Below the pieces are notes generated by a model, which did no database searches, was not told the DNA's origin, and saw nothing but the letters and a program-made list of their open reading frames with translations. This document shows positions 7,589-19,986 of a stretch of DNA of 24,000 nucleotides, one piece after another; position 1 is the first letter of the stretch, and every line of letters starts with the position of its first letter. This stretch comes from Bacteroidales bacterium (GTDB lineage: Bacteria > Bacteroidota > Bacteroidia > Bacteroidales > Tenuifilaceae), in contig JBFXDX010000005.1 of the NCBI GenBank assembly GCA_050180705.1, positions 106,006 through 130,005 of the forward strand, given 5' to 3'. The translations under genes were made by a program, and so were the position numbers.

Positions 7589-7615
7589 ACTATTTCAGTT
7601 TTGTAGATTATCGAT

Positions 7616-7707: not shown

Positions 7708-7723
7708 TAAAAGTGAATGTTTT
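7708..7723. repeat. Direct repeat copy 2 (TAAAAGTGAATGTTTT)
   Basis: This 16-mer is identical to the one at 7616..7631, 92 bp away. Both copies are followed by a T-rich stretch ending in TTAC. Confidence 0.8.
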
Positions 7724-7790
7724 GTTTTACTGAAAAATGTGCCGTCATATCATTTTTATTTTAAATACCCACGAAACAATTTGTTGTGTT

Positions 7791-7835
7791 ACCCTAATAT
7801 AGTCTATTGAGTAATTAGACCATAATATTTAGGGT
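7791..7835. repeat. Imperfect inverted repeat / extended hairpin
   Basis: ACCCTAA (7791-7797) pairs with TTAGGGT (7829-7835). TAT (7798-7800) pairs with ATA (7825-7827). GTCTA (7802-7806) pairs with TAGAC (7816-7820). The loop is 9 nt. It sits in the 348-bp spacer between the recombinase gene and the 178-aa ORF. Confidence 0.6.
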
Positions 7836-7936
7836 GAGCAAAAATATGAAGCAAAATCTGGGAAAAAAAGCTGAAACTGGCCGTGAAAAGTGCATCAACT
7901 TTGGGTATACTCTAAAATAGTATCAGAAATGACTTG

Positions 7937-8473
7937 TTATAAGAAATCATCATATAATGATTCAATTTTTCTCTTTCTCAGTATTTGCTTTGGTGTTGGG
8001 GGAATGATTGTTATTTTTAATTCGTAGTATATTGTTTTCAACTCATTGATAAAAGTCGAGAAATTAATTATTGCTTTTTCATAATCAACATTATCAATTA
8101 ACGCTTTAAACTTAACATGTAACTCATCAATCTTTGGCATTTCAGTAGAAAAAACATAAGCATGCTGATTTTCCTCAATCTGGTGGTAGAGAATAATAGC
8201 ATGCTCAGCGTTTAGTACATATTTTATGTGGTTTATTGTGAGATTGTTTGAATTAATAACATTAACCAAGTCTCTGTATACGTACATTACAGATTTAGAA
8301 GTGTAGGTTCGTCTTTCTGGTGAATTATCTTTGGTAATCAGTACTTTGAATTCTATTCCACTCCAACTCCAGCTCATCCTATAAGTGTTATTATCAGATT
8401 TTCCAACCAAAGTAATGTAATCTAGCTCCCCAACATTAATAGTTATTAATTCTCGCAACTCTTTCTCTGTCAT
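7937..8473 (-). CDS. Hypothetical protein (178 aa), downstream of the retron RT
   Basis: This long ORF is co-directional with the RT and 286 bp downstream of it. I see no recognisable motif. The C-terminal tail is basic (PKQILRKRKIESL). Confidence 0.6.
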   Translation of the reverse strand: MTEKELRELITINVGELDYITLVGKSDNNTYRMSWSWSGIEFKVLITKDNSPERRTYTSKSVMYVYRDLVNVINSNNLTINHIKYVLNAEHAIILYHQIEENQHAYVFSTEMPKIDELHVKFKALIDNVDYEKAIINFSTFINELKTIYYELKITIIPPTPKQILRKRKIESLYDDFL

Positions 8474-8759
8474 TTTTTTTATTCTTATATATAAAAAAGC
8501 ATTATTAAAAAAGATGATTTCTGGAGGTGTTGGGAGACGAAGCCATTTTGTATTTGCTTGAATAATAATATTATGTGATTTTTAAATTGAAATAAAATTT
8601 GATATAAAAAGCAAAAGAAGTGCTTTAAATGAAACAAATCATTTCATTATATTTTATTACATGAAATGTTTGGATACTTTAAAATGTTTCTCTAACCTAA
8701 TAGAATACTTTTGGGGTCTCGTTTAGTGAAAAGTTGAAATAGGATTTCTTTGAAAAACT

Positions 8760-9872
8760 TTAATTACCTATCGAATAAATACAGTTTGACTTTTCAAACT
8801 TATTCTTAAATATCAAATACAACGTATCATCCTTCCCTCGAATTTGACCAATAAAATTGACATAACCTCTTAACCGATTTAGGAATGTTACTCTCATCTC
8901 ATCCGTCAGTATATGGCTTTTATAATGTTTTTTTACAGCTTCGTCAAGTCCATTCAAGGAAAGGTCATGTATCATAGCTCTAACCTTTTTAAGCAATATA
9001 CGGTCAACGTTGACTCTGTCATTTACAGTTAAGCCTGTTACTGTTTGCTTACGATTCTTGGACTGTATTCTTAGCTTCTTTTGATTTATAGAAAAGTTGT
9101 TTTTCGTAATAATGTTAATTATATCAAGTAACTCATCATGAGATATCTTTCTACTTGAGGAAAAGGTCAAATCATCTGCATAACGAGTGTATGCAAAGCC
9201 ATGGTCTTTGGAAAATTCAATTAGGTCTTCATCTAGTACTCTACATATGAAATTCGAAATAACTGGAGAGGTTGGTGCTCCTATTGGTAATCTACCATTG
9301 AGTGTCGTTAATAATGTAATAGCATTGGTAATTTGTTCATCGAAATTAAAAATGTCAGATAAAAGCAATTCTTTAACTTGTTTTGCTCTAATGCTCGGAA
9401 AAAAGTCCTTTAAATCTATGTTAAGAACGCTCTCTCTACCAACATGTATTTTGGCATTGGCAGCAATATTACAATGTGTACCCAAATAATGTGGATTAAT
9501 AACAAATCCGTGAACTTCTTTTGGTTTTATGCATAAATAGTAAGCTTGCAAGTAGTAGTTTAACCGCTTCTGGATTCTTTTCAATTCGTTTGACGGAGCA
9601 TAGATTTCTCTATATCCGCCTTTTTTCTTGGGTCGATGAAAATGAATGTAGGCTGGATTATTAATTACATTTTCAACTTCACTAAATGTGGCATCTAGCA
9701 ACTTGCAGAGTTCATAAGGAGTATCAATTCTAAGTAACTTTAAGGCATTGTTTTCATGGTAATAGGGTTTAGAACCATGATTAATTTCCCTTACGAGTTT
9801 CCCATTGAAGCATAGGTTTGCTTTATTAGGACTAACTTTTTTAATGGTAATAATTTCTTGTATAGTTTTCAT
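8760..9872 (-). CDS. Retron-type reverse transcriptase
   Basis: 370-aa ORF with RT motifs in order: KKKGGYREIYAPSNELKRIQKRLNYYL (motifs 1-2), VHGFV...NAKIHVGRESVLNIDLKDFFPSI (motif 3 / A), LPIGAPTSPVISNFICRVLD (B), YTRYADDLTFSS (YADD, motif C), and the retron-typical VTGLTVN after the catalytic core. No endonuclease or maturase extension is present. A structured non-coding region with terminal inverted repeats lies immediately upstream. Confidence 0.9.
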   Translation of the reverse strand: MKTIQEIITIKKVSPNKANLCFNGKLVREINHGSKPYYHENNALKLLRIDTPYELCKLLDATFSEVENVINNPAYIHFHRPKKKGGYREIYAPSNELKRIQKRLNYYLQAYYLCIKPKEVHGFVINPHYLGTHCNIAANAKIHVGRESVLNIDLKDFFPSIRAKQVKELLLSDIFNFDEQITNAITLLTTLNGRLPIGAPTSPVISNFICRVLDEDLIEFSKDHGFAYTRYADDLTFSSSRKISHDELLDIINIITKNNFSINQKKLRIQSKNRKQTVTGLTVNDRVNVDRILLKKVRAMIHDLSLNGLDEAVKKHYKSHILTDEMRVTFLNRLRGYVNFIGQIRGKDDTLYLIFKNKFEKSNCIYSIGN

Positions 9873-9883
9873 TTAAAAAAAGA

Positions 9884-10052
9884 TGAGCCGTTGCCAATTA
9901 TCCAAGAATTCTTAAACGCAATTTGCGAGAAGCGGAGCGTAGTGAGCATCGCAGTGAATTGCGTACTTCGCTATCACCACTCCTTTGTGGGTTGCAGGAA
10001 CACAACCGCATAGCCTTGAAAAATGACTCATAATTAGTTAAGCAACGGCTCA
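9884..10052 (-). ncRNA. Putative retron msr-msd non-coding RNA locus
   Basis: A perfect 11-bp inverted repeat, TGAGCCGTTGC (9884-9894) and GCAACGGCTCA (10042-10052), brackets 169 nt directly upstream of the RT start (9872). This is the geometry of retron a1/a2 repeats. The interior is more G+C-rich than its surroundings. On the minus strand it holds several hairpins: GGTTG-N8-CAACC, GCGAAG...CTTCTCGC enclosing about 35 nt, CGCAAATTGCG, and AAGAATTCTT. The exact msr/msd ends and the branching G cannot be set by eye. Confidence 0.7.
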
Positions 10053-10063
10053 ATATTGTTAAA

Positions 10064-11110
10064 TTATAAAGGACTATTATCTATTTCATCGAGTCTATAA
10101 CTTGATATGGAAAATTCACGCTTCACTAATTCGAAGTCTTTAAACTTTGTAAAGTCTTTATCGACCATAAGCTTAATGTCATCAACTCTTCCATTCCTGT
10201 TCTTTGCAATTAATACCTCTGCAACGCCAGTAATGTTATTTCCCTCTTCATCCTCCTGAAATCCATAGTATTCTGGACGATGAATAAAAATTACTTTATC
10301 TGCATCCTGTTCGATAGCTCCAGATTCACGCAAATCTGATAGCTGAGGTCGTTTATTTCCACCTCTGCTTTCAACAGCACGACTCAATTGACTAGAAGCT
10401 ATTACGCACACATTATTGTCTTTTGCAATATTTTTTAGTTCTCGGCTTATATAGCCTATCTCTAAATCTCTGCTATTACGGTATCTGTTAGAACTCATCA
10501 TCTGCAAAAAATCAACCATGATTATTTTAATACCATCCTCTTGAATATGCTTTAAACATTGTGATTTCAATGCAGAGATTGAACAATTGCTACTATCGTT
10601 AACTAGTATTCGGTGTTTTTCTAGTTCCTTTTCAGCATGTAGTAGTCTAGTTTTATCTAGAGGGTTTAGACTATTCTGGATTATCTTATTTACAGCAACT
10701 CCTGTAAGTGCAGAGATAAATCGATAAGTGAGTAATCTTTGAGATAAATCAAAGGTAAAGTAGAGTATGGGGGCTTCAATAGAAACATTCAAGGCTAAAG
10801 ATACTAGGAACTGCGTTTTACCCATTGAAGGTCGCCCTCCAATAACAACAAATTCACCCAAGGACAATCCCCCTATTGCCAAGTCTAAGTCGGTAAAACC
10901 AGTCTTAATAAGGTCGGGGCTTAAAGTCTCGCTCTGTAATGTTTTCAGATTTTCTTTAGCTAAATCAAAAATAGACTTTGACTCTTTGATGTTTATATCC
11001 TTCATCTCATATTCGTACACCAGTCTCTTTATCTGATGCATGATTTCAGCCTCATCCAATCCTTGATTGTTGATTACTGACATTATGTGTTGTAAGATAT
11101 CCTGTTTCAT
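10064..11110 (-). CDS. DnaB-family (RecA-fold) ATPase lacking the DnaB N-terminal domain
   Basis: 348-aa ORF. IKTGFTDLDLAIGGLSLGEFVVIGGRPSMGKTQFLVSLALN covers the linker and Walker A. IIMVDFLQMM is Walker B. SRELKNIAKDNNVCVIASSQLSRAVESRGGNKRPQLSDLRESGAIEQDADKVIFIHRPEYY is the DnaB C-terminal signature. Only about 65 residues precede the linker, so the primase-binding N-terminal domain is missing. The stop codon lies 11 nt from the retron inverted repeat. Confidence 0.85.
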   Translation of the reverse strand: MKQDILQHIMSVINNQGLDEAEIMHQIKRLVYEYEMKDINIKESKSIFDLAKENLKTLQSETLSPDLIKTGFTDLDLAIGGLSLGEFVVIGGRPSMGKTQFLVSLALNVSIEAPILYFTFDLSQRLLTYRFISALTGVAVNKIIQNSLNPLDKTRLLHAEKELEKHRILVNDSSNCSISALKSQCLKHIQEDGIKIIMVDFLQMMSSNRYRNSRDLEIGYISRELKNIAKDNNVCVIASSQLSRAVESRGGNKRPQLSDLRESGAIEQDADKVIFIHRPEYYGFQEDEEGNNITGVAEVLIAKNRNGRVDDIKLMVDKDFTKFKDFELVKREFSISSYRLDEIDNSPL

Positions 11111-12139: not shown

Positions 12140-14263
12140 TTAATGACAATATATTCTTTTTAATTCTTTAATCATAATGTCAATCGTGTTGGGAGAAATT
12201 TTACTACTACTAGTCGCATTATTTTTCAAATGGTTAATTAAATCTTCGTTTGAATGTTTGTCTAATTTTACCAAACTACCATCTTTTCTTTTATACCCAT
12301 TTTCTCGATGTACTTTTTGAATCCATTCTATTTCAGTTTTTACTTTTTTTAATTCATTTTTTGGAATGAAAGAAGAAATTTTATCAAAAGCACTATAGTC
12401 ATAAATAAAAAGTTGATTCTCATTATCATCAAATAACATTGATGTTTGTTTTGGAATTGGTTTTTGTGTTATTTCTTCATCGATTGTTCGATTTGATTTA
12501 GTTTTCAAATAAGCAATTACAGCCTTCCATTTCCCAATTGTACCTTTCGGAGGCTCTATACGTTCTAAGGCTTTTATATAGTCATCCGAAATATCACCAC
12601 GGTACAATCTAGTCATCTCTGTCTTATAATACTTCTTGTCCTTTTCCTTTAGAATTGAAAAATCAGATACATTAATTTCAATATCTTGAATTAAAATGGA
12701 AATGACATTGTTTGAAATATCTTCATTCTTTCCATCTTTATTAACTTTTGTTTCAACTAAAATCGATTTTGGTTTTTCTTCTTTTGGCAAAATTCCAATC
12801 AATTCGATATTATGAATTTGTTTGAATAGAGTTTTGTAAATTTTGGACAAATAATCTATATCTGACTCAAAAAGACCTGCAGTAAATACCCTTGATAAAT
12901 TAGCAAACCCACAAATAGAACCATAAAAGCCAAAAGCAAGGCGACCATCCTCAATTTCAGATAAAATTAGAAAATCAGTTAATTTTTCAAAATCATCTCC
13001 TTTTAATAGAAATGAGGCAATAGCAGATATCAAACCAGTATTCCATTGGATGTTAAACGCTTCCTGTCCAGCAATATTTCGTCTTAAACTATTTAGGTAT
13101 TTATTTGCATCGTGAGTTTTCCATTCTTCTTCACCGACATAACTCTTAATTTTTCTAGTTATCTCATCAGCTAGTCTTGACCTTTCAGTACTAAACGAAG
13201 ATTCTGTAATGTCAGAAGAAACAAAAATATCATTAATTAGGTTTTGATACATTTCTCTCGTTTCTAGTTTTGTAATAAACGAGTCTTCGTATTGTGTCAA
13301 TCTATTTCCAACTAAAGCGATGCTATTCCATTCAAATTTGGGTTTACTAATATTACTGTTTTCAATCATTTTATTACTCCAATTTTTCAACTCTTGTAAT
13401 GAAATTTCATATTTTGCTCTATCAGTAAAGGTTTCGAGATAACTTTCGAAGTTGTATCTATTTGGAATTCTCATTCCAAAATTGTTATATATTTCATTCC
13501 AAACATTGTTGTATTGGTCTGGCAGAATCGCCCTTAAATATTCTTTTACATCTTTATATTGATATGAAGTGATTTTTTGTAAAAGATATTTTAGTTCATC
13601 AGTTTGTTGCTGAGTTCCTTTTCCCGAGACACTATTAACAATAGCAGAAGAGAGGTTGATGGTCTTGTTAATAACATTTGCTAATTGAACGCTTTCTTTC
13701 GATTTTGCATTATTTGCAGCAATTAAATAGGCATAAGCAAACCCTTTGATTTTGTTTATTTGATTATCTTTTTCTATTTCTTCATAATTAAGGTTTTGAA
13801 TATCATATATGCCATCTAAATTGTATTCTCTACTCTCTGATTGAAAAACAAAAATACTATTCCAATATAATTTGACTAATTTTGTTTCAGCACTTGATTC
13901 AGAGCGTGAAATAATAGTTCTTTTATTGTCAGGAGTTAAGAAATATATTTTGGAATTAAAAGGATTCAAGTATATGGTTCTGTCGGTCTGCCAAATTTCA
14001 TTTTGTATTCTTTTTAAGCCATCCAACTCAACATCAATGTCAACTTCTATTACCATTGGATAATTGACTAACTCACTGTTAGAAATCTTAAATTCGGGGA
14101 ACGCTTCAAAGAGAAGTAATGAATTATTAAAACTATTCAAATCAACTTTCTCGAAAGTTTTATACCCAAAGTTTCTTTGTAAATAAAACCCATGCGGAGA
14201 TATTGATTCACAAGACATTATATTATTAAAGTTCAGAGAACTGGTTGGAATATATAGTTTCAT
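12140..14263 (-). CDS. Large hypothetical protein (707 aa), last gene of the DUF1848/MTase/helicase operon
   Basis: The ORF is uninterrupted and starts 12 nt after the helicase stop. I recognise no Walker, nuclease or other catalytic motif. The N-terminus is MKLYIPTSSLNFNNIMSCESISPHGFY. No transmembrane segment is obvious. Confidence 0.85.
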   Translation of the reverse strand: MKLYIPTSSLNFNNIMSCESISPHGFYLQRNFGYKTFEKVDLNSFNNSLLLFEAFPEFKISNSELVNYPMVIEVDIDVELDGLKRIQNEIWQTDRTIYLNPFNSKIYFLTPDNKRTIISRSESSAETKLVKLYWNSIFVFQSESREYNLDGIYDIQNLNYEEIEKDNQINKIKGFAYAYLIAANNAKSKESVQLANVINKTINLSSAIVNSVSGKGTQQQTDELKYLLQKITSYQYKDVKEYLRAILPDQYNNVWNEIYNNFGMRIPNRYNFESYLETFTDRAKYEISLQELKNWSNKMIENSNISKPKFEWNSIALVGNRLTQYEDSFITKLETREMYQNLINDIFVSSDITESSFSTERSRLADEITRKIKSYVGEEEWKTHDANKYLNSLRRNIAGQEAFNIQWNTGLISAIASFLLKGDDFEKLTDFLILSEIEDGRLAFGFYGSICGFANLSRVFTAGLFESDIDYLSKIYKTLFKQIHNIELIGILPKEEKPKSILVETKVNKDGKNEDISNNVISILIQDIEINVSDFSILKEKDKKYYKTEMTRLYRGDISDDYIKALERIEPPKGTIGKWKAVIAYLKTKSNRTIDEEITQKPIPKQTSMLFDDNENQLFIYDYSAFDKISSFIPKNELKKVKTEIEWIQKVHRENGYKRKDGSLVKLDKHSNEDLINHLKNNATSSSKISPNTIDIMIKELKRIYCH

Positions 14264-14275
14264 AAATTTAAAATT

Positions 14276-15331
14276 TTAAATGTCTGTAATTTCGTCAAAT
14301 TCAGTTGTTTTATAAAAGTTTTCTGGTACATTACCGTTAATAAATGAAGTTAAATCTCCACTATGCATAATGTATAGATTTTTATACGTTCTTGTCATTG
14401 CAACATATAATGATTTCTGTTTGCTATAACCTTTGTCATCATTTTCAATTGTGCAATCAGGTAAAAATACAGTTTCAAATTGTAATCCTTTAGCTGAATG
14501 ATATGTCATTAATTTGGGATTAGACGTTTCAAAGTCTAACGTATTTCTATCATTTTTCCAATTATTTCTATCTCTAAATTGGACTTCATTATTTATTCCA
14601 TTTTGAGTTAGCACTTTACTCGCTTTTTCAACTTGTTCATTATGTGGAAATAATATTCCAACATCAGTCATATTATTATTTTTAATAATTCTAGCAATTG
14701 CTTCAATTTGCTTATCATAGTTTGGATAAAAAATAATGCGAGGGATAGAATTCTCTTTACTTTTATATGTTCCTTCGTTATATCTAGTTCCCACACCAAT
14801 ATAGTTTTCAGTAATTTTGGCTATCGGTTTTGGCAACCTATAATTAAAATATAAGGGAAATTCTGACAATCCTGATTGATATGCTATATCTCTAACATCT
14901 TGCGTAGACTTTAACCCATCATATATTGACTGTGCAGTGTCTCCAAAAAAGAAAAATTGTTTACGAGTAGCCTTCTTGAAATCGTCAATTTCTTCTTTTG
15001 TGAAATCTTGGATTTCGTCAACAATAACATAGTCTGATTGAGGACACCCTAGTTTATTTTTCCAGTGCCAATGATAGTAAAAATCATTTTTTAGCTCTAA
15101 GGTCTTTCGCCCTGAATTCATATAACTACTTAACGATTTTGTAAAAACAATAATTTGATAATCATTGCCTTTTTCTTTTTGAATCTGTTTTGCTTTATGT
15201 AATGCAATGACTGATTTACCGCTACCAGCGCAACCAGATACAACCATTGATTGGTCTAGAGTTCTGTATAATAAATTTCTTTGATAATCATCTAAATCTG
15301 ATTCTTTAATAAAAAAATCCTTCTTTGCCAT
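14276..15331 (-). CDS. Minimal SF1 (UvrD/PcrA-like) helicase-fold ATPase, 351 aa
   Basis: All core SF1 motifs are present in order: VVSGCAGSGKSVIAL (I / Walker A), YVIVDEIQDF (II), FFFGDTAQSIYD (III), FNYRLP (IV), MTYHSAKGLQFETVFL (V), LYVAMTRTYKNLYI (VI). The protein is too short to carry the 1B/2B accessory domains of UvrD or Rep. Confidence 0.85.
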   Translation of the reverse strand: MAKKDFFIKESDLDDYQRNLLYRTLDQSMVVSGCAGSGKSVIALHKAKQIQKEKGNDYQIIVFTKSLSSYMNSGRKTLELKNDFYYHWHWKNKLGCPQSDYVIVDEIQDFTKEEIDDFKKATRKQFFFFGDTAQSIYDGLKSTQDVRDIAYQSGLSEFPLYFNYRLPKPIAKITENYIGVGTRYNEGTYKSKENSIPRIIFYPNYDKQIEAIARIIKNNNMTDVGILFPHNEQVEKASKVLTQNGINNEVQFRDRNNWKNDRNTLDFETSNPKLMTYHSAKGLQFETVFLPDCTIENDDKGYSKQKSLYVAMTRTYKNLYIMHSGDLTSFINGNVPENFYKTTEFDEITDI

Positions 15332-15341
15332 ATCTTGGTAA

Positions 15342-16187
15342 TTAAATTTTATAATTATCTTTAACTAAATAGCCATTACTTTTCTGACAATATTTTGCGG
15401 AATTATAATCTTTCCCCAAAATGTTTATGTATGAACAATTGTTATCGAAAACATGAATTTTGTTAGCAAAACATGAATTTGTCATAATTCGATATGTTAC
15501 CTTGGTTTTATCATTTTTCTTTATTGAATGAGAAATGCTGAAAGTACGTTGAGTAAAGCAATTCCCTGAACACTCCTTTTCAAATTCACCACATGAAATA
15601 GGTATAAGTGTTTTAAAACCACTTAATTCATTAATTGCCCTATTGGCTTGTAAATTCATTAAAATAGGATTAAAGGTTGTTCCAACTTTTGTAGTCACAT
15701 CTAGTAAAAGGAACAGTCCAACTTGTGATAACCTTGGCAAACTAAAAGTTGTTAAGTCGTAATAAAAATCAGTGTTCCCTTCTGCAATTAGTTCGCAACC
15801 CATTTTAGATGACATTATAAAATCATATTGTGAATCTTTAATCCATTCTAGGTCTTTTGTCGTATGTATGGATTGACACTCCGTTTTTAAGGTTATTGTA
15901 AAAGTTGTTCTTTTGGAAAATTCTTCTACAAAATCGCTTAAAACTATGAGTGCATTAGAGTGACCATCTAAAGCAAGTATATTTACATTTTTAATCGCTA
16001 GGCTGTATTTATTAATAGCAACCAACAAACCCATCAGATTTCCACCTGTGCCACTCCCAATATCAAGAATATTTATTTCTTCCTTTGTAGCTAAACTCGA
16101 ATAACATTCATTCTCAAATATATTGTCGAAAACACAAAAACTTTCTCCATAACTTCTTGGGAAATATGTTCCGAGGTAAACCCTCAA
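15342..16187 (-). CDS. Class I SAM-dependent methyltransferase domain (3' part of a frame-disrupted gene; the ORF-track start is a TTG)
   Basis: The SAM-binding motif I is INILDIGSGTGGNLMGL, followed by an acidic motif II region (NILALDGH). The codon at 16185-16187 is TTG, and the same frame stays open without any ATG, GTG or TTG up to 16559. See the next feature. Confidence 0.75.
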   Translation of the reverse strand: MRVYLGTYFPRSYGESFCVFDNIFENECYSSLATKEEINILDIGSGTGGNLMGLLVAINKYSLAIKNVNILALDGHSNALIVLSDFVEEFSKRTTFTITLKTECQSIHTTKDLEWIKDSQYDFIMSSKMGCELIAEGNTDFYYDLTTFSLPRLSQVGLFLLLDVTTKVGTTFNPILMNLQANRAINELSGFKTLIPISCGEFEKECSGNCFTQRTFSISHSIKKNDKTKVTYRIMTNSCFANKIHVFDNNCSYINILGKDYNSAKYCQKSNGYLVKDNYKI

Positions 16188-16648
16188 TTCTTCTTCTGAA
16201 AGATTTAAATTCTTTTCGAACCGTTTGTGGTCAGGAGCATATTTTCCTTGATGTTTCTCAAAAATGCTTTGCTGTAACCAAGTTGGCAGAATTGATGAGT
16301 TTTTTAAACTATCAACTAGAAGTTCTTCCTTACTAATTAATCTGTTTTGTAAATCTTTAGGCGTTTCAATAGGTCGGTTTCGATTAAATCCTTCAAACCA
16401 ATATAGAACATTATCATGACTTGTTTTAGTAAAACTTACAGTTTTATGCAGGAAACTCTCATATTTTTCTTTTGCAATTGGAGCATCATTATCTTTAACC
16501 CAAATACAAACTAAATAATCGGATTGGAATTCAATGTTTTCAATATTTTTGGCAAAGTGTCATTTTCTCCATATACCTCAAATTTATCGACATTTATTTC
16601 GATTGATTCAATAATTAGTTTGACTAGTTGGTTTAGACTATCTTTCAT
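16188..16648 (-). pseudogene. Orphaned 5' portion of the methyltransferase gene, split by a 1-nt frame change
   Basis: Hand translation shows that the methyltransferase frame continues start-less from 16187 up to 16559 (HFAKNIENIEFQSDYLVCIWVKDND...EEELRVYLGTYF). A 45-codon ATG ORF (16511..16648, MKDSLNQLVKLIIESIEINVDKFEVYGENDTLPKIL...) begins 2 nt after the DUF1848 stop, in the adjacent frame. The two frames overlap only in 16514..16559, which contains an A5 run (T5 on the plus strand, 16546-16550). One extra A there would give a continuous 435-codon gene spanning 15342..16648. Confidence 0.65.
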
Positions 16649-16650
16649 TT

Positions 16651-17739
16651 TTATCTTCCTGTAATAGTTTCAGACAATTCGCTAGTGTTTTTAATATAAT
16701 TATAATTTTCTGAAACAACTCTTTTGCTCGTATTGGCATAGCAATATTCGCACAAATGAAGGCAAGTATTATATTCCCCAATATCTTTACTAAAAATACA
16801 ACCACAAAGTTCACGTTGTCCTTTATCTTTAATATTCTTTTTCTTAATAATCTGAGGTTGTGTATTGAAAAATAAATCAGCATTTACTTTCTCCACGCCT
16901 AAAAAATCCATAAGGATTCTATCGTTTGAGAAGAGCTTAATCATTAAATCATCATCCACGCACTTATTGTGTTTAATGCCATATTTTTCAAGTGGTATTT
17001 TTTCTGCACAAGTTCCAATCTCAAAATTCCAATTTTTATTAAGTTGCTGGAGCCCTATGGCAAAATCATCCATTAGTCTCTCATTAAATTCTTGATATTT
17101 AATAGAGTTCTTTCTAAGGTTGTTTTGAACTTTTTTATAAAGGTTTATGTCTGCAAAGCTAAAAACCATTTTTTCGGTATGATTCTTTAGTTGGTTTCCT
17201 ATGTTCTCAACTTTTCTCAAAAGTTCATCTACTCCAATCGTATCAGTTAGTATTAAGGGGTCAAATCTCCATATTACTTTGCTCCTACCAATCTTTTCGG
17301 AAAGTTCAATAAAGGTTTCTATTCTTGAATTTACATTGGGAACATTAGGCTCAAGTTTTTCCTTGTCGTAATCATTGAGGGTAAACTGGAAATAATAATT
17401 TATTCTCTTCTCGTCAATAACACCAAGATGCTTGATGATTGGTTTGGGGTTTTTCGACCAGAATACAATTAGCCTTGCTTTACTGAACGAAACATAAAGA
17501 GGAACACCATTAAAAGGATTTTTCCATTTTACATATCCTTCATTTATCCTTTGAATCAACCAATCGGAGTAAAATGCGGGTATATCAGTTGAACGGCTAG
17601 CAGATATAATAATTGGGGCTTGAGCATCAACAACTTCACCATCTTTCTTCTTAATTTTTATCTTGTCCCAATTCATTCGATATGCTGTTAGTTCACGTAA
17701 AAATACAAAAAGATTAAGTGTTACAAAAGAAATTTTCAT
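16651..17739 (-). CDS. DUF1848-like protein with a C-terminal Cys cluster (putative Fe-S / radical-SAM-related)
   Basis: IIISASRSTDIPAFYSDWLIQRINEGYVKWKNPFNG, YYFQFTLNDY, VIWRFDPLILTD and the C-terminal CGCIFSKDIGEYNTCLHLCEYCYAN match the DUF1848 family pattern as I remember it. The likelier start is the internal ATG at 17676 (MNWDKIKIKKKDG...). The 17739 ATG adds a hydrophobic 21-aa leader, although it directly abuts the stop of the upstream 88-aa ORF (TAAATG). Confidence 0.8.
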   Translation of the reverse strand: MKISFVTLNLFVFLRELTAYRMNWDKIKIKKKDGEVVDAQAPIIISASRSTDIPAFYSDWLIQRINEGYVKWKNPFNGVPLYVSFSKARLIVFWSKNPKPIIKHLGVIDEKRINYYFQFTLNDYDKEKLEPNVPNVNSRIETFIELSEKIGRSKVIWRFDPLILTDTIGVDELLRKVENIGNQLKNHTEKMVFSFADINLYKKVQNNLRKNSIKYQEFNERLMDDFAIGLQQLNKNWNFEIGTCAEKIPLEKYGIKHNKCVDDDLMIKLFSNDRILMDFLGVEKVNADLFFNTQPQIIKKKNIKDKGQRELCGCIFSKDIGEYNTCLHLCEYCYANTSKRVVSENYNYIKNTSELSETITGR

Positions 17740-18006
17740 TTAGAAGATGATAAAATACCATCCCATGAATTGAGTTTCAGCATCACCCAATTTCCCAACC
17801 CAAAGTTGATACCTTATTATATAAGCAGATTTTCCAATCATAAAATTATTATTTTTATTTTTATCAAAAACCTGCATATCAATTATATAGCAAGTATTGA
17901 CTTGATGTAATGTCACTATAAATGACCAAGGTATCAATAAGCTGTCAACTCCACCACTTAAACTAACACACTGTCTATCATGTATATAATAAACAAATTT
18001 TATCAT
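17740..18006 (-). CDS. Small hypothetical protein (88 aa)
   Basis: The ORF is co-directional with the DUF1848 gene and immediately upstream of it, and it is not antisense to any larger ORF. The composition is aromatic-rich with no recognisable motif. Its coding status is uncertain. Confidence 0.35.
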   Translation of the reverse strand: MIKFVYYIHDRQCVSLSGGVDSLLIPWSFIVTLHQVNTCYIIDMQVFDKNKNNNFMIGKSAYIIRYQLWVGKLGDAETQFMGWYFIIF

Positions 18007-18130
18007 CCATAATTTTTTTTTTCTGAAAATTAAACTTTTAATTAATGGTTAGATATATAAAGCATCTAGTTCGAGCTGGAAACCTTACCTGATTCTAGAA
18101 AGGGTAAGACCAAAAAATAATTTAATACCA

Positions 18131-18298
18131 ATGAGTTATGAAGGTGATGCTTATAAAGAAGTTTATTCACGAGCAAAGTTAAGTCCTGAAGAAATAAGGC
18201 AATTCAATTTCTTCAAAGATTGTTCGGATGCTGAGGTTAATGAAATAGCCGAAAAAATGTTTGATTTAGCAGTATTAGTAAAAATAATAATGGATTAA
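18131..18298 (+). CDS. Small ORF (55 aa) immediately upstream of the serine recombinase
   Basis: This ORF is not in the ORF track because it is under 60 aa. Hand translation gives MSYEGDAYKEVYSRAKLSPEEIRQFNFFKDCSDAEVNEIAEKMFDLAVLVKIIMD, with the stop 3 nt before the recombinase ATG at 18302. The tight spacing suggests co-expression. Function is unknown. Confidence 0.3.
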   Translation: MSYEGDAYKEVYSRAKLSPEEIRQFNFFKDCSDAEVNEIAEKMFDLAVLVKIIMD

Positions 18299-18301
18299 AG
18301 T

Positions 18302-19954
18302 ATGGATGATTTAAGTAGATTTAGAAAATTTGTGAAAATTAAGCCAACGTCAAAAAATGTTGGAAATAAGAATGTTTGGCTCTATACACGAGTGTCCTCC
18401 TCGAACCAAACAGACAATTACTCCCTCGAATATCAAAAAGAAGAAGCCTATAAGTACGCACAAAGTAAGGGCTTAACAATTACTGATGTGTTCGGAAACA
18501 CAAACGAATCCGCTTCGGACGACTTTACCCGAAAAGAATTCACAGAACTTATACAAAGAGTTCGAAGGTCAAAGTCCAAACCCCATGCAATTCTTGTTTA
18601 TGTGATGAACAGGTTTAGCAGGACAGGAGGCAATGCAATTGCAATTGCAACAGAACTAGTAGATGAACTGGGTGTTAATTTAATTGAAGTGTCAAGCGGA
18701 GTCGACACATCAACAAAAGAGGGAAGAAATATTATCCATCAAAAATTATTAGAAGCTAATAAGCAGAATCTGGATAGATTAAGTCACACTTTGCCTGGAA
18801 TGAAAAAATTAATTCAATCGGGTAAAAATTTAGGTAAAGTTCCATTTGGTTATGACGTATTTGGCCCAAAGGTGGCTGATTTTGAGAAACGAAGTATCGT
18901 GCAAAAAATAGTGATTAATGAAGATGGGAAAAAACTTAGAATGGCATGGGAATGGAAAGCACAAGGGATGCCCGACTATAAGATTATTGAAAATTTAAAA
19001 ACCTTGGGCATAGTAATAAGAAAACAGAAGCTTAGTGCTATCTGGAAGAAGGCTTTCTATTGTGGGATTCAGACCAATGCATTGCTTGAAGGAATATGTA
19101 TTAAGGGGAACTGGGAGCCCCTTATAAGTGAAGAATTATTTTGGAAAGTTCAATCAATGCTAAATAAAAACCATCACGGCTATACAGTTGTAAAAGAATC
19201 CGAAGAGAGGCCGCTATCTGGTTTTATATATTGTTCAAAATGTGGGAAAAAGTTAACTGGATACCATAATAAAAAGAAGAATCTTCACTACTATAAGTGC
19301 CAGACCTGTAAATCTGTCTCAATGAATGCAAGTACTCCAAAGAGATACCCAAATCATATTGGCGCAAACAATTTGTTTGTAGAAGTTCTAGCTCTCCTTA
19401 ATTTAGAGCCTAAATATGAAAAATTGTTTGAGTTGCAGTTAAAAAAAATATTCAATTGCTTTGAGGACTCTGAAAAGCAGGAAATAGCCATTTTCAGAAA
19501 GCAACTTGCAGAACTAGAGAAAAAGAAGAACTCACTAGAAGAGCGGTATGCTTTTGGAAACATTGAAAAAGAAATTTACGACAAGTACAGGACTAAAATT
19601 GAAGAAGAAATACTTGATTTAAGAACTAAATACGAAATACCCCAAATTGACACATCTAACTTTAGAGTGGGTCTAAATAAAGCATTGTCGTTTATTCAGA
19701 ATATCAGTAAATATTGGCTTTCAACAAGTGTATTAAACAAAGAGAGAATACAAAAATTACTGTTCCCTCAGGGATTAACATTAGATGTAGAAAAAAGGCA
19801 ATATCTAACCTCAGAAGTAAATACTTTGTTTATGTTAAAGTTAGATTTAATGGGACTTACAGAAGAGGACAAAAAGAAACTCCCCATCGTTTTTGATGGG
19901 GAGTCCGATTTAGTAGCGGGGACAGGACTCGAACCTGTGGCCTTTGGGTTATGA
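18302..19954 (+). CDS. Large serine recombinase (serine integrase)
   Basis: The N-terminal resolvase domain carries the catalytic Ser context VWLYTRVSSSNQ, plus SLEYQ and MNRFSRTG. A recombinase domain (PFGYDV) follows, then a zinc ribbon (CSKCGKKLTGY...YYKCQTC) and a coiled-coil (LAELEKKKNSLEERYAFGNIEKEIYDKYRTKIEEEILDLRTK). The last roughly 13 codons (VAGTGLEPVAFGL) are encoded by the antisense strand of the tRNA gene. Confidence 0.9.
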   Translation: MDDLSRFRKFVKIKPTSKNVGNKNVWLYTRVSSSNQTDNYSLEYQKEEAYKYAQSKGLTITDVFGNTNESASDDFTRKEFTELIQRVRRSKSKPHAILVYVMNRFSRTGGNAIAIATELVDELGVNLIEVSSGVDTSTKEGRNIIHQKLLEANKQNLDRLSHTLPGMKKLIQSGKNLGKVPFGYDVFGPKVADFEKRSIVQKIVINEDGKKLRMAWEWKAQGMPDYKIIENLKTLGIVIRKQKLSAIWKKAFYCGIQTNALLEGICIKGNWEPLISEELFWKVQSMLNKNHHGYTVVKESEERPLSGFIYCSKCGKKLTGYHNKKKNLHYYKCQTCKSVSMNASTPKRYPNHIGANNLFVEVLALLNLEPKYEKLFELQLKKIFNCFEDSEKQEIAIFRKQLAELEKKKNSLEERYAFGNIEKEIYDKYRTKIEEEILDLRTKYEIPQIDTSNFRVGLNKALSFIQNISKYWLSTSVLNKERIQKLLFPQGLTLDVEKRQYLTSEVNTLFMLKLDLMGLTEEDKKKLPIVFDGESDLVAGTGLEPVAFGL

Positions 19955-19986
19955 GCCCAACGAGCTACCAACTGCTCCACCCCGCA
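19914..19986 (-). tRNA. Initiator tRNA-fMet (anticodon CAT)
   Basis: The minus strand reads TGCGGGGTGGAGCAGTTGGTAGCTCGTTGGGCTCATAACCCAAAGGCCACAGGTTCGAGTCCTGTCCCCGCTA, and I folded it by hand. The acceptor stem is 2-7/66-71 with a U1-U72 mismatch. The D stem is GAGC/GCTC with A11:U24. The anticodon stem carries three consecutive G:C pairs (GGG/CCC) flanking the loop CTCATAA. The T arm is ACAGG TTCGAGT CCTGT. These are hallmarks of a bacterial initiator tRNA, and the sequence closely resembles E. coli tRNA-fMet. CCA is not encoded; the next bases are CTA. Confidence 0.9.

What the first reader, a model, noticed from the sequence alone, without database searches (positions are those of the whole stretch)
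12140..17739. Tight four-gene operon (DUF1848-like Fe-S protein, SAM methyltransferase, minimal SF1 helicase, 707-aa unknown): candidate undescribed DNA-modification or defence system
**Seen in sequence.** Four co-directional genes are packed with 2-, 10- and 12-nt spacers (stop 16651 / start 16648; stop 15342 / start 15331; stop 14276 / start 14263).

**Gene content.**
- A DUF1848-like protein with the CGC...C..C..C..C cluster that resembles a radical-SAM Fe-S site.
- A class I SAM methyltransferase (DIGSGTGG).
- A 351-aa protein with all SF1/UvrD motifs I-VI but no accessory domains.
- A 707-aa protein with no motif I recognise.

**Context.** The operon sits in an integrase-bounded island between a retron and the integrase, with an Ssp-like module further left. 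That is the kind of neighbourhood where defence systems cluster.

**Inference.** A modification enzyme pair, a helicase/translocase and a large unknown protein together resemble modification-dependent or self/non-self discriminating systems. I cannot match this combination to BREX, DISARM, Dnd, Ssp, Dpd, Gabija, Hachiman, Druantia, Zorya, Shango, Mokosh or classical R-M types.
Basis: partly seen in the sequence, partly recalled or inferred. Interest (0 to 1): 0.82.

Follow-up and report, generated by a model that had tools for sequence, protein, structure and literature searches.

The report
Conserved four-gene nucleic-acid-modifying defence candidate
This is a real, tightly packed four-gene cassette that travels as a unit between distantly related bacteria, looks like an uncharacterised immune or DNA-modifying system, and is probably disabled in this genome by a one-base deletion.

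Summary
Four co-directional minus-strand genes sit at 12140-17739 with 2-, 10- and 12-nt spacers:
- a DUF1848 protein (Pfam E 2.5e-94);
- a class I SAM methyltransferase, broken by a 1-nt deletion;
- a minimal 351-aa SF1 helicase;
- a 707-aa protein ("BIG") with no database hit.

The set recurs widely. Of 91 BIG-anchored loci, most are from Bacteroidota. Others are labelled Clostridia, Desulfobacterota, Planctomycetota, Kiritimatiellia, Ignavibacteria and Chlorobi. About 70 loci carry all four genes, and many of the rest stop at a contig end. Helicase-BIG adjacency is near-invariant, and flanking genes differ between loci.

PADLOC, Pfam and NCBIfam assign no named system.

New findings:
- BIG's N-terminal ~135 residues are a divergent relative of Pfam "2CompART".
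- A sister cassette exists: DUF1848, SF1 helicase, 2CompART+2CompARG protein, methyltransferase-like protein.
- DUF1848 has a C-terminal CX3CXYC motif plus four more invariant cysteines.
- Some methyltransferases are fused to NERD or PIN nuclease domains, and one locus has a SIR2-like insert.

Best reading (about 0.6): a mobile conflict or defence module that modifies nucleic acid using NAD+ and SAM. No function is proven, and the source paper for the Pfam names could not be read.

The parts
16651..17676 (-). DUF1848 gene. It is 341 aa from M22; the longest ORF extends to 17739. It is predicted to be a [4Fe-4S] radical-SAM-type enzyme.
   Evidence: Pfam PF08902 hit with E 2.5e-94 and PADLOC RTasDUF1848 with E 1.3e-41. 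In 64 cassette homologues the invariant cysteines are C223, C239, C291 and C293, plus C305-x3-C309-x-Y-C312. In the AF2 model (pLDDT 77) the highest-probability Foldseek matches are the radical SAM enzymes Cfr, Elp3 and PFL-AE, but all have E >= 0.026. JGI names homologues 'DNA repair photolyase'.
15342..16648 (-). Class I SAM-dependent methyltransferase gene, frameshifted. The fragments are 16511-16648 (45 aa) and 15342-16187 (a 281-aa ORF with a TTG start). The repaired length is 435 aa.
   Evidence: Three-frame translation. The repaired protein has more than 400 homologues, among them intact 435-aa proteins and forms fused to PIN_4 or NERD. Conserved features are YLGTYFPRS..E, motif I G(S/C)GTGG, D228, K282, E286 and a C-terminal set of four cysteines. 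No DPPY/NPPY or PCQ DNA-methyltransferase motif is present.
16544..16545 (-). Site of the 1-nt deletion that breaks the methyltransferase reading frame.
   Evidence: A DNA alignment with L009, L010, L011 and L013 shows a single-column gap in the window only.
14276..15331 (-). Minimal SF1 (UvrD/Rep-like) helicase, 351 aa.
   Evidence: Pfam hits to Viral_helicase1, UvrD_C, UvrD_C_2 and AAA_19. PADLOC hits to GajB, RTasHel and Nhi models. Motifs conserved in 78 homologues: GCAGSGKS, VDEIQD, GDxAQ, NYRLP, TYHSAKGLQF and YVAxTR. hhalign against the sister-cassette helicase gives E 1e-30.
12140..14263 (-). 'BIG': the 707-aa signature protein of the cassette. It always lies immediately downstream of the helicase.
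   Evidence: No hit in Pfam, PADLOC, NCBIfam or PDB sequences. AF2 model pLDDT 83.5, with no Foldseek match at E < 0.001 in PDB or BFVD. The family has 963 clusters at 50% identity with E <= 1e-3. It is the most divergent component, with a median pairwise identity of 33%.
13844..14263 (-). BIG N-terminal domain (residues 1 to about 140), related to Pfam 2CompART (an ADP-ribosyltransferase-like domain).
   Evidence: hhalign gives E 0.005 for the first 33 residues plus a collinear second segment. PF22546 is hit by 4 of 52 N-terminal domains, best E 0.025. In reciprocal HMM ranking, the 25 best matches (23 proteins) of the 2CompART N-terminal HMM among 2905 ORFs are all BIG, and 37 of the top 37 matches of the BIG N-terminal HMM among 471 ORFs are 2CompART proteins. 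All alignments are collinear at the N-terminus. Residues at least 94% conserved across 71 family members include P6, T7, N11, S22, P23, R30, G33, Y34, N43, Y98, E126 and K128.
12869..13033 (-). Conserved helical segment of BIG (residues about 411-465: G422, D439, R441, G448, G452-F-A-N). It is a possible helix-hairpin-helix DNA-binding element; the position is inferred.
   Evidence: HHH_RecD2 is matched by 6 of 40 family members, best E 4e-4, and some members carry a C-terminal Zn_ribbon_Top1. The tool did not report where in the protein the HhH hit falls, so placing it on this conserved Gly-rich segment is my inference.
17677..18301 (.). Divergent intergenic region between the cassette and the recombinase gene. 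It presumably holds the cassette promoter.
   Evidence: Only small unsupported ORFs lie here. The sigma-70 consensus scan is not above the shuffled expectation, as expected for a Bacteroidota genome.
18302..19986 (.). Context: a large serine recombinase gene (18302-19954, +) whose 3' end overlaps tRNA-Met (19913-19986, -). This is the right-hand boundary of the low-GC island that carries the cassette.
   Evidence: Pfam Resolvase, Recombinase and Zn_ribbon_recom hits. tRNA-Met found by ARAGORN and Rfam. GC rises from about 0.30 to about 0.39 beyond this point.

Best explanation
The four genes form one horizontally mobile conflict (defence-type) module that acts on nucleic acid, most likely DNA, through covalent modification.

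**Shown**
- The four families are inherited together in many unrelated bacteria.
- The helicase and BIG are always adjacent.
- Helicase, BIG and methyltransferase co-diverge.
- The cassette sits in variable, island-like contexts.

**Inferred division of labour**
- The minimal SF1 helicase loads or translocates on the target and exposes single strands.
- BIG is the fast-evolving targeting subunit. It has an ADP-ribosyltransferase-like N-terminal domain, a putative HhH element and, in some members, a zinc ribbon. It would recognise the nucleic acid and use NAD+ to attach an ADP-ribose-type adduct.
- DUF1848 is the highly conserved Fe-S enzyme with a radical-SAM-type CX3CXYC motif. It would process or reverse that adduct by radical chemistry.
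- The SAM-dependent methyltransferase would add a methyl mark or cap, either for self-protection or to complete the modification.

In some lineages a nuclease domain (NERD, PIN or REase-like) fused to the methyltransferase, or an inserted SIR2-like gene, supplies an explicit killing function.

In this window the methyltransferase is frameshifted, so this copy is probably inactive or only partly active.
For: **The four genes behave as a unit**
- Tight operon, with no internal terminator-like site.
- The four families co-occur in about 70 of 91 loci, retrieved through BIG from genomes of Bacteroidota, Clostridia, Desulfobacterota, Planctomycetota, Kiritimatiellia, Ignavibacteria and Chlorobi. 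Helicase-BIG adjacency is near-invariant, whereas DUF1848 changes position.
- Pairwise identities of HEL, BIG and MT correlate at r = 0.72-0.82. DUF1848 correlates with the others at 0.41-0.50, against a permutation maximum of 0.23.

**A parallel sister cassette**
- DUF1848, SF1 helicase, 2CompART+2CompARG protein and a methyltransferase-like protein occur in the same order in all 29 complete copies.
- BIG's N-terminus is related to 2CompART.

**DUF1848 recurs next to NAD/ADP-ribose or base-repair enzymes**
- A macro hydrolase and a Sir2 gene lie next to it in Roseburia.
- AlkB lies next to it in L092, and two genes away on the opposite strand in a Planktothrix plasmid.
- It is linked with UG25 methylase-RT genes (PMC9226505).

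**Defence flavour**
- In this window the island is bounded by a serine recombinase and tRNA-Met and also carries SspBCD and a retron-type RT.
- Among 140 sampled neighbours from 78 loci are SLFN_AlbA_2 (5), PDC-S01 (4), AriA/PtuA/AbiL-type ATPases (3), retron RT (2) and HEC-01A (2).
- Methyltransferases are fused to NERD or PIN_4. One locus has a SIR2-like insert and another a DpdF-like helicase/REase giant.
- Components are often split or truncated: the window and L011 MT genes, and loci L074, L083, L086 and L089. This is typical of costly accessory systems.
Against: - No experiment bears on function.
- The ART assignment rests on weak sequence similarity to a Pfam family whose own activity is only predicted. 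Foldseek found no solved ART fold, or any other match, for BIG. The classical H-Y-E or R-S-E catalytic positions cannot be assigned.
- The DUF1848 match to radical SAM structures is below significance (E >= 0.026). The cysteine-rich tail is modelled at pLDDT < 50, and Pfam Radical_SAM is not hit.
- The methyltransferase has no DNA-methyltransferase catalytic motif and no informative PDB relative, so its substrate could be RNA, protein or a small molecule.
- Most cassettes have no recognisable nuclease or other effector.
- Many sampled neighbours are ordinary housekeeping genes. Enrichment for defence genes was not tested against a genome-wide background.
- DUF1848 also occurs alone at very high similarity, for example in P. 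distasonis.
- The cassette is essentially absent from curated plasmids and verified phages.
Confidence: 0.6

Rival explanations
1. The cassette is a self-serving DNA hypermodification or anti-restriction module of integrative or conjugative elements. It would modify the element's own DNA, for example single-stranded transfer intermediates unwound by the helicase, to escape the recipient's restriction rather than to defend the host.
For: The cassette lies directly beside the island's serine recombinase, next to tRNA-Met. Integrases, HTH regulators and Fic/Bro-N genes flank copies of the cassette or its sister. One complete copy sits on a virome scaffold. Most cassettes lack an obvious nuclease, which suits a pure modification pathway.
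Against: There were no hits for BIG in 72,556 plasmids, and only one in 50,697 phage records, which is marked 'UNVERIFIED'. Many copies sit among housekeeping genes with no visible mobile-element genes. NERD, PIN and SIR2 add-ons are effector-like rather than protective.
Confidence: 0.15
2. The cassette is a nucleic-acid damage-reversal module. It would remove bulky base adducts, such as ADP-ribosyl or alkyl lesions imposed by toxins like DarT or by competitors. The parts would be a UvrD-like helicase, an SPL-like radical SAM 'DNA repair photolyase', an ADP-ribose-handling protein and a methyltransferase.
For: JGI annotates close DUF1848 homologues as 'DNA repair photolyase'. An AlkB-type dioxygenase overlaps the DUF1848 start in L092 and lies near DUF1848 on a Planktothrix plasmid. 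The sister-cassette protein carries a glycohydrolase (2CompARG) domain. DUF1848 sits next to a macro ADP-ribose hydrolase in Roseburia. DUF1848 is the most conserved part and also occurs alone.
Against: Repair genes are usually vertically inherited and syntenic. This cassette is patchy, is found in a tiny fraction of species (109 of 185,579 species genomes were confirmed by a scan that required either of two short peptide patterns, so this is a lower bound), and is often pseudogenised. BIG evolves fast (33% median identity), as expected for an arms-race component. Nuclease and SIR2 fusions do not fit repair. No ARG domain is detectable in BIG.
Confidence: 0.15
3. DUF1848 and the methyltransferase are a housekeeping RNA or tRNA modification pair. 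On this reading the helicase and the 707-aa gene are unrelated neighbours.
For: The methyltransferase lacks DNA-methyltransferase motifs. The best Pfam hit for the helicase is an RNA-helicase family, Viral_helicase1.
Against: All four genes co-occur and co-diverge. MT and DUF1848 are usually separated by the helicase and BIG. Flanking genes differ from genome to genome. The cassette is rare and occurs in an island here.
Confidence: 0.03
4. The local copy is a decaying remnant. The family may well have a function, but the cassette in this window would be non-functional because the methyltransferase is frameshifted.
For: The window carries a 1-nt deletion relative to four homologues. PGAP annotated only the 281-aa fragment (P0139). 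The 72%-identical relative L011 carries an independent TAA stop at codon 17 of the same gene. Other loci show split BIG, HEL or DUF1848 genes.
Against: The source is a metagenome-assembled genome, so a single-base indel next to an A5 run could be an assembly error. The other three genes are intact. The 281-aa ORF still holds every conserved methyltransferase motif from Y158 onward, and natural short forms of about 270 aa exist.
Confidence: 0.4

Closest known systems
Sister cassette built around Pfam '2-Component system' ART/ARG proteins (PF22546 2CompART plus PF22545 2CompARG)
   Same: It has the same four-part logic and partly the same proteins. DUF1848 is 72-82% identical to the window's copy, closer than the DUF1848 of most type-A cassettes. 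The helicase is a homologous minimal SF1 enzyme (hhalign E 1e-30). The protein after the helicase shares BIG's N-terminal domain. A fourth protein carries a class I methyltransferase domain. The order is fixed in all 29 complete copies.
   Different: BIG has no detectable 2CompARG (glycohydrolase) domain and has a different body of about 570 residues. The two methyltransferases share only the SAM-binding region (E 0.0017). Gene order differs. BIG falls below Pfam's threshold, so type-A cassettes are invisible to the existing models. I could not read the publication behind the Pfam names, so I do not know what has been said about this system.
UG25 / UG35 'DRT' reverse-transcriptase systems (Mestre et al. 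2022, PMC9226505)
   Same: UG25 pairs a methylase-RT fusion with a DUF1848 protein, and UG35 pairs a methylase-RT fusion with a UvrD-like helicase. The window's DUF1848 hits PADLOC RTasDUF1848 (E 1.3e-41) and its helicase hits RTasHel (E 4.8e-15).
   Different: The cassette has no reverse transcriptase. The methyltransferase gave no PADLOC hit at E <= 0.01. The defence role of UG25 and UG35 was itself 'inconclusive' in that paper.
DarTG (DNA ADP-ribosyltransferase toxin plus glycohydrolase antitoxin)
   Same: The concept is the same: an ART-fold enzyme predicted to act on DNA, with a glycohydrolase counterpart in the sister cassette. This comparison draws on established knowledge of DarTG, not on a test made here.
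   Different: No sequence or structural similarity to DarT or DarG was detected. DarTG has no helicase, radical-SAM-type enzyme or methyltransferase.
Multi-enzyme DNA-modification defence systems with helicases (Dpd, Dnd/Ssp, DISARM, BREX)
   Same: All combine modification enzymes with a helicase or translocase in mobile islands. One variant cassette (L077) replaces MT and HEL with a giant protein whose helicase is DpdF-like (E 1.6e-70). SspBCD lies in the same island here.
   Different: None of their signature proteins is present in the cassette. The chemistry implied here, ART-like plus DUF1848, is different.
Gabija (GajA/GajB)
   Same: The helicase gives its best PADLOC hits to GajB models (E 1.9e-18).
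   Different: There is no GajA (OLD/ATPase nuclease). The helicase is about 350 aa against roughly 500-600 aa for GajB. The similarity is confined to the shared SF1 core.
Radical SAM enzymes acting on nucleic acids (spore photoproduct lyase, Cfr)
   Same: DUF1848 has a CX3CX(aromatic)C motif. Homologues carry a 'DNA repair photolyase' label. The highest-probability structural matches are Cfr, Elp3 and PFL-AE.
   Different: The cysteine motif lies at the C-terminus rather than the N-terminus. Four extra invariant cysteines are present. There is no Pfam Radical_SAM hit, and the structural E-values are not significant.

Membership tests
DUF1848 (PF08902) | Full-length match to the Pfam model above its gathering score | tested here: met
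   316.4 bits against a cut-off of 30.5, covering model positions 1-262 of 262.
Radical SAM superfamily (for DUF1848) | CX3CX2C [4Fe-4S]-binding motif with an aromatic residue before the last Cys | tested here: met
   C305-LHL-C309-E-Y-C312 is invariant in 64 homologues. Unusually, it lies at the C-terminus.
Radical SAM superfamily (for DUF1848) | Partial or full TIM-barrel core similar to solved radical SAM enzymes | tested here: inconclusive
   Foldseek probabilities are 0.94-0.97 for PFL-AE (8fo0), Cfr (9p0p; rmsd 4.2 over 167 columns) and Elp3 (6ia6). However, E is 0.026-0.037, and generic TIM barrels score as well or better by E-value.
Radical SAM superfamily (for DUF1848) | Sequence match to Pfam Radical_SAM (PF04055) or to solved radical SAM enzymes | tested here: not met
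   DUF1848 is the only Pfam hit. A profile search of PDB sequences found no radical SAM protein.
ADP-ribosyltransferase-like 2CompART (PF22546), for the BIG N-terminus | Match to the Pfam model above its gathering score | tested here: not met
   Only 4 of 52 N-terminal domains hit, with a best E of 0.025, below the 27-bit cut-off.
ADP-ribosyltransferase-like 2CompART (PF22546), for the BIG N-terminus | Remote homology shown by reciprocal profile searches and equivalent operon position | tested here: met
   The top 25 matches (23 proteins) and the top 37 matches in the two reciprocal HMM rankings are all the partner family, and the alignments are collinear. hhalign gives E 0.005. Both proteins follow a homologous helicase in DUF1848 cassettes.
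ART superfamily (enzymatic ADP-ribosyltransferases) | ART fold resembling solved ARTs, with an H-Y-E or R-S-E catalytic constellation | tested here: inconclusive
SF1 UvrD/Rep-like helicases | Motifs I, II, III, V and VI, and Pfam UvrD-type domains | tested here: met
   Pfam UvrD_C, UvrD_C_2, AAA_19 and Viral_helicase1 hits. Motifs are conserved in 78 homologues.
Class I SAM-dependent methyltransferases | Glycine-rich motif I and an acidic motif II in a Rossmann-like domain | tested here: met
   DIGSGTGG and D228 are conserved. Family members hit Methyltransf_23, _25, _31 and _12 and CheR. The window protein on its own gives only E 0.07-0.1.
DNA N6A/N4C or C5 methyltransferases (restriction-modification) | Catalytic (D/N/S)PP(Y/F) or PC(Q) motif and matching Pfam or PADLOC models | tested here: not met
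   The conserved positions contain no such motif. There is no N6_Mtase or DNA_methylase hit apart from one at E 0.3, and no PADLOC hit.
Gabija | GajA OLD-family ATPase-nuclease adjacent to GajB | tested here: not met
   No GajA-like gene is in the cassette. Only the helicase hits GajB models.
DRT UG25/UG35 | A UG/Abi reverse transcriptase with an N-terminal methylase domain | tested here: not met
   The cassette has no RVT domain. The window's only RT (8760-9872) is a separate retron-type gene 2.3 kb away, with two genes between it and the cassette.
BREX, DISARM, Dnd, Ssp, Dpd, Hachiman, Druantia, Zorya, Shango, Mokosh, MADS, Hma | Presence of their signature proteins as modelled in PADLOC-DB v2 | tested here: not met
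   MT and BIG give no PADLOC hits. DUF1848 and HEL hit only accessory or generic models. Newer DefenseFinder models were not available.

The most novel reading that the evidence does not exclude
The cassette builds, and perhaps also erases, a previously unknown covalent DNA modification. An ART-like enzyme would install an NAD+-derived ADP-ribose-type adduct on helicase-exposed DNA. A C-terminally permuted radical SAM enzyme and a methyltransferase would then remodel it. The result would serve as an immune mark or as a replication-blocking lesion on invading DNA. This would be a new branch of nucleic-acid chemistry in bacterial immunity, shared by two related cassette families: at least 963 BIG clusters at 50% identity, and more than 8000 DUF1848 clusters at 90% identity.
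Probability: 0.25. Interest if true: 0.85.

Novelty: new variant of a known kind. Interest (0 to 1): 0.64.

Why it matters
If the inference holds, this is an uncharacterised immune or DNA-modifying system with an unusual mix of enzymes: an ART-like domain, a radical-SAM-type Fe-S enzyme, a methyltransferase and a minimal helicase.

- It is common in gut and environmental Bacteroidota, including cultured Prevotella, Segatella, Phocaeicola and Parabacteroides strains.
- It would assign a role to DUF1848, a very large 'unknown function' family.
- It would link two cassette families and the UG25/UG35 RT systems through shared parts.
- It could reveal a new nucleic-acid modification, of interest for phage-host biology in the gut and as an enzymology resource.

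Intact copies in cultured strains are now identified, so the question is directly testable.

Tried and rejected
**Searches that found nothing**
- BIG gave no significant match in Foldseek against PDB or BFVD. PDB sequence searches with the whole protein and with the N-terminal profile A4 were also empty.
- DUF1848 and methyltransferase profiles against PDB sequences gave nothing informative. The best methyltransferase hit was a generic SAM-binding stretch of plantazolicin-type enzymes at E 0.14.
- BIG is absent from PLSDB plasmids and present in only one 'UNVERIFIED' virome scaffold.

**Hypotheses rejected**
- I tested whether BIG also contains the 2CompARG domain or shares its C-terminal parts with the sister protein. 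There was no enrichment in HMM rankings, so I rejected this.
- I considered whether BIG stands in for the reverse transcriptase of UG25/UG35. No RT-like hit or fold was found, so I dropped the idea.
- I considered a programmed frameshift at the A5 run in the methyltransferase. Nothing supports it, and the relatives are simply in frame.

**Tools unavailable or restricted**

**Literature**
- 'DUF1848' appears only in the UG/Abi paper and in one unrelated microbiome paper. 'PF08902' returned nothing.
- Searches for the origin of the '2-Component system ART/ARG' names failed.
[quoted passage not shown] By inference that review is the likely source. It is not held.

**Unexplained**
- Weak PH_SPO71 Pfam hits occur in 14 of 52 BIG N-terminal domains. 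I treat them as spurious.

Full report
**1. What is in the window**

- The DUF1848 ORF spans 16651-17739.
- The methyltransferase (MT) runs from its ATG at 16648 to its stop at 15342.
- The helicase (HEL) spans 14276-15331.
- The 707-aa ORF (called BIG here) spans 12140-14263.
- The gaps between genes are 2, 10 and 12 nt.

Pfam assigns the first gene to DUF1848 at E 2.5e-94. It assigns the third to UvrD-type SF1 helicase families. It gives nothing for MT or BIG. NCBIfam adds nothing.

Three details need correcting.
- Homologues start at MNW(D/E)K (L009; the close relatives in A6). The DUF1848 start is therefore probably M22, at 17676.
- MT is split. Three-frame translation and a DNA alignment with four relatives show one base missing between 16545 and 16544. 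The repaired 435-aa protein is 66% identical to an intact Thermophagus gene.
- The window comes from a Bacteroidales MAG, so an assembly error cannot be excluded. However, the 72%-identical relative L011 has an independent stop at codon 17 of the same gene.

**2. Context in the window**

The cassette is the first cargo next to a large serine recombinase gene (18302-19954, +). The 3' end of that gene overlaps tRNA-Met (19913-19986, -). Beyond it the GC content rises from about 0.30 to about 0.39, and housekeeping genes follow: an M23 peptidase, Dxr and RseP.

To the left lie, in order:
- a transglutaminase-like gene;
- a DnaB_C-like ATPase;
- a retron-type RT;
- a truncated tyrosine integrase;
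- an ADP-ribosylglycohydrolase;
- SspB, SspC and SspD.

**3. Is the four-gene set conserved?**

BIG has more than 440 homologues at the 90% clustering level. It has 963 clusters at 50% identity with E <= 1e-3 among 1.84 billion representatives.

The first contexts examined already showed the same partners in other orders. A scan of one genome per species returned 80 loci. I called ORFs in all 89 loci held at that point plus the window, built HMMs for the four families, and tallied the gene orders.

| Gene order | Loci |
|---|---|
| MT-HEL-BIG-DUF1848 | 55 |
| DUF1848-MT-HEL-BIG (the window's order) | 7 |
| MT-DUF1848-HEL-BIG | 2 |
| All four, with one gene split or an extra copy (3 with a split gene, 3 with a second DUF1848 or helicase hit) | 6 |

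- Many of the remaining loci are cut by contig ends.
- Helicase and BIG are always adjacent, and in that order.
- Hosts are mostly Bacteroidota. They also include genomes or MAGs labelled Oscillospiraceae, Clostridium, Desulfovibrio, Geobacter, Desulforapulum, Planctomycetes, Kiritimatiellia, Ignavibacteriaceae and Chloroherpeton.

Pairwise identities across 53 complete loci give these results.

| Comparison | Result |
|---|---|
| HEL, BIG and MT against each other | Spearman r 0.72-0.82 |
| DUF1848 against the others | Spearman r 0.41-0.50 |
| Permutation maximum | 0.23 |
| Median identity, DUF1848 | 64% |
| Median identity, HEL | 56% |
| Median identity, MT | 40% |
| Median identity, BIG | 33% |

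So this is one co-inherited unit. It has a conserved enzyme (DUF1848) and a fast-evolving large subunit (BIG).

**4. The parts**

*Helicase.* All SF1 motifs are conserved in 78 homologues. At about 350 aa it is a bare core. Its PADLOC hits are generic: GajB, RTasHel, Nhi and AbiO.

*Methyltransferase.* Motif I G(S/C)GTGG, D228, K282 and E286 are conserved. So are an upstream YLGTYFPRS..E motif and, in the long forms, four invariant C-terminal cysteines.
- Family members give modest hits to generic class I families and to CheR.
- There is no DNA-methyltransferase catalytic motif and no informative PDB relative, so the substrate is unknown.
- The family comes in forms of about 270, about 430 and about 600-670 aa. 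The longest carry PIN_4 or NERD nuclease domains.

*DUF1848.* Across 64 cassette homologues the mean column identity is 62%. Seven cysteines are invariant: C223, C239, C291 and C293, plus C305-x3-C309-x-Y-C312 (numbering from M22).
- The last three form the classical radical SAM cluster motif, but at the C-terminus.
- In the AF2 model (pLDDT 77) the cysteine-rich tail is modelled poorly.
- Foldseek gives no match below E 1e-3. The hits are TIM-barrel-like. Those with the highest probability and lowest rmsd are the radical SAM enzymes Cfr, Elp3 and PFL-AE.
- JGI labels many homologues 'DNA repair photolyase'.
- I regard a radical-SAM-type Fe-S enzyme as likely but not demonstrated.

*BIG.* The AF2 model is confident (pLDDT 83.5). 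It shows an alpha/beta N-terminal domain followed by a long helical body.
- Foldseek finds nothing in PDB or BFVD.
- Scanning 40 family members against Pfam gave HHH_RecD2 in six (best E 4e-4). It gave a Top1-type zinc ribbon at the C-terminus of a subgroup. Both point to DNA binding.

**5. The sister cassette and the ART link**

The closest DUF1848 homologues (72-82% identity) are not in type-A cassettes. They lie in a second four-gene arrangement:
- DUF1848;
- an SF1 helicase;
- a protein of about 550 aa with Pfam 2CompART (E about 1e-36) and 2CompARG (E about 1e-27) domains;
- a protein of about 515 aa with a weak class I methyltransferase domain.

A metagenome scan recovered 38 more loci. 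All 29 complete ones have exactly this order.

The two helicases are clearly homologous (hhalign E 1e-30). The two methyltransferases share only the SAM-binding region (E 0.0017).

The evidence that BIG's N-terminus is related to 2CompART is as follows.
- hhalign aligns the first 33 residues at E 0.005, plus a collinear second block. KLYIPTSS in BIG corresponds to K(Y/F)YLPISS in 2CompART.
- Four of 52 BIG N-terminal domains touch PF22546 directly, with a best E of 0.025.
- In reciprocal HMM ranking, the 2CompART N-domain HMM's 25 best matches (23 proteins) among 2905 ORFs are all BIG.
- The BIG N-domain HMM's 37 best matches among 471 ORFs are all 2CompART proteins. In every case the match is collinear and at the N-terminus.

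The individual scores are weak, but the ranking cannot be chance. Both proteins also occupy the same operon slot.

No similarity is detectable for the ARG domain or for the rest of the protein.

**6. Other clues to function**

DUF1848 recurs next to NAD+/ADP-ribose and base-repair enzymes.
- In a Roseburia replicon it follows a macro 'protein-ADP-ribose hydrolase' and a Sir2 gene.
- An AlkB-type dioxygenase overlaps its start in L092, and another lies two genes away on the opposite strand on a Planktothrix plasmid.
- In P. distasonis a solitary, cassette-like DUF1848 sits beside a non-specific endonuclease.
- In the UG/Abi survey, DUF1848 accompanies UG25 methylase-RT fusions, and UG35 methylase-RT fusions go with a UvrD-like helicase.

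Variant type-A cassettes add effector-like parts.
- L020 carries a SIR2-like gene (PADLOC Aga_SIR2, E 1.8e-9).
- L077 carries a 1738-aa protein with a DpdF-like helicase and weak hits to methyltransferase and REase_MTES_1575 models.
- L007 and L014 carry NERD-methyltransferase fusions.
- L080 and L085 replace MT and DUF1848 with three unknown genes.

A random sample of 140 neighbouring ORFs from 78 loci is a mixture of housekeeping genes and defence-associated families. The latter include SLFN_AlbA_2, PDC-S01, AriA/PtuA/AbiL-type ATPases, retron RTs, HEC-01A and a TOTE primase. The flanks are not syntenic. I did not compute a background-corrected enrichment.

**7. How it most likely works**

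*Shown:* the cassette is a co-inherited, mobile, four-enzyme unit with a helicase-BIG core.

*Inferred:*
- The helicase opens or tracks along DNA.
- BIG binds the DNA and, through its ART-like domain, transfers an NAD+-derived group.
- DUF1848 performs Fe-S and SAM radical chemistry on the target or the adduct.
- MT methylates the target or the adduct.
- The outcome is either a self-mark that licenses an associated nuclease or SIR2 effector, or a replication-blocking lesion on invader DNA, as with DarT.

I put about 0.95 on 'one functional module' and about 0.6 on 'conflict or defence system based on nucleic-acid modification'. I put about 0.25-0.3 on the specific ADP-ribose-plus-radical-SAM chemistry.

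The rivals are an element-selfish hypermodification or anti-restriction pathway and an adduct-repair module, at about 0.15 each. A housekeeping RNA-modification pair is effectively excluded.

Independently of all this, the local copy may be dead, because MT is frameshifted (about 0.4).

**8. Comparison with known systems and novelty**

The cassette is not a member of Gabija (no GajA) or of DRT UG25/UG35 (no RT). It is not classical restriction-modification, because it lacks a DNA-methyltransferase motif. It does not match any PADLOC v2 system.

Its nearest relative is the 2CompART/2CompARG cassette. The domains of that cassette have curated Pfam families, so that relative has been catalogued computationally. 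I could not access the source.

In the searchable literature, 'DUF1848' appears only in the UG/Abi paper and in one unrelated study.

I therefore rate this a new variant of a known kind, namely modification-centred conflict systems of the ART/ARG-DUF1848 type. Its signature protein family is invisible to current models, and no experimental characterisation was found.

**9. Limits**

- Only window or search-returned sequences could be modelled.
- The PADLOC models date from 2023.
- Most loci are MAG contigs, so some of the 'pseudogenes' may be assembly errors.

Noticed in passing
window 65-5254 (-): SspD (65-1168), SspC (1165-4386) and SspB (4376-5254) form a phosphorothioation module at the left edge of the window, with PADLOC E-values of 6e-94, 0 and 3e-110. 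The operon may continue beyond the window, and no SspE or other restriction partner is visible.
   Followed up: partly
window 5737-6696 (-): An ADP-ribosylglycohydrolase gene (Pfam E 1.5e-72) lies in the same island. Given the ART-like domain in BIG it might be functionally connected, but it is 5.4 kb away and separated by other genes.
   Followed up: no
window 7001-11110 (-): This stretch holds a truncated tyrosine integrase (195 aa, 7001-7588), a 178-aa ORF, a retron-type RT (8760-9872) and a DnaB_C-like ATPase (10064-11110). The RT's best PADLOC hits are the RT domains of types XI, I-C and XII. No retron ncRNA was searched for, and Rfam gathering found none.
   Followed up: partly
window 19913-19986 (-) and 18302-19954 (+): The tRNA-Met gene overlaps the 3' end of the large serine recombinase ORF, and GC rises just beyond it. 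This is the likely integration site and right-hand end of the island.
   Followed up: partly
L011:7624-7680 (MT gene of a 72%-identical relative): This relative has an independent in-frame TAA at codon 17 of its methyltransferase. It is a second N-terminal lesion in the same gene in a close relative of the window's cassette.
   Followed up: partly
L080:5503-11890, L081, L085:4241-10648: Copies labelled Geobacter, Desulforapulum and Planctomycetes keep the helicase and BIG. Upstream they carry three unknown genes of about 370-400 aa with no Pfam hits, and neither an MT nor a DUF1848 gene. This may be a third cassette type.
   Followed up: partly
L077:2835-12889: In this variant DUF1848 is followed by a 1738-aa protein with a DpdF-like SF2 helicase (PADLOC E 1.6e-70) and weak hits to methyltransferase and REase_MTES_1575 models. 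After that come a coiled-coil protein and a 966-aa BIG with weak, sub-threshold Sel1 and TPR hits.
   Followed up: partly
L020:12184-14338: A SIR2-like gene (PADLOC Aga_SIR2, E 1.8e-9) and a small cysteine-rich gene are inserted between BIG and DUF1848. L030 has a second helicase-like gene and L044 an 825-aa gene at the same position.
   Followed up: partly
L135:5322-7942 (Roseburia sp. 831b plasmid): A macro-type 'protein-ADP-ribose hydrolase', a Sir2-family gene and DUF1848 lie in a tight co-directional row. This is an independent link between DUF1848 and ADP-ribose metabolism.
   Followed up: no
L092:8390-9004 and L134:8915-9598: An AlkB-type 2OG-Fe(II) dioxygenase overlaps the DUF1848 start codon in a sister cassette. 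Another lies two genes from DUF1848, on the opposite strand, on a Planktothrix plasmid.
   Followed up: no
L133:6998-9203 (Parabacteroides distasonis): A solitary DUF1848 scores as high against the cassette HMM (625 bits) as true cassette members do. It lies next to a DNA/RNA non-specific endonuclease, with no helicase, BIG or MT nearby.
   Followed up: no
BIG N-terminal domains (alignment A4): Fourteen of 52 N-terminal domains give weak Pfam hits to PH_SPO71 (best E 8e-4). This is unexplained and probably spurious.
   Followed up: no
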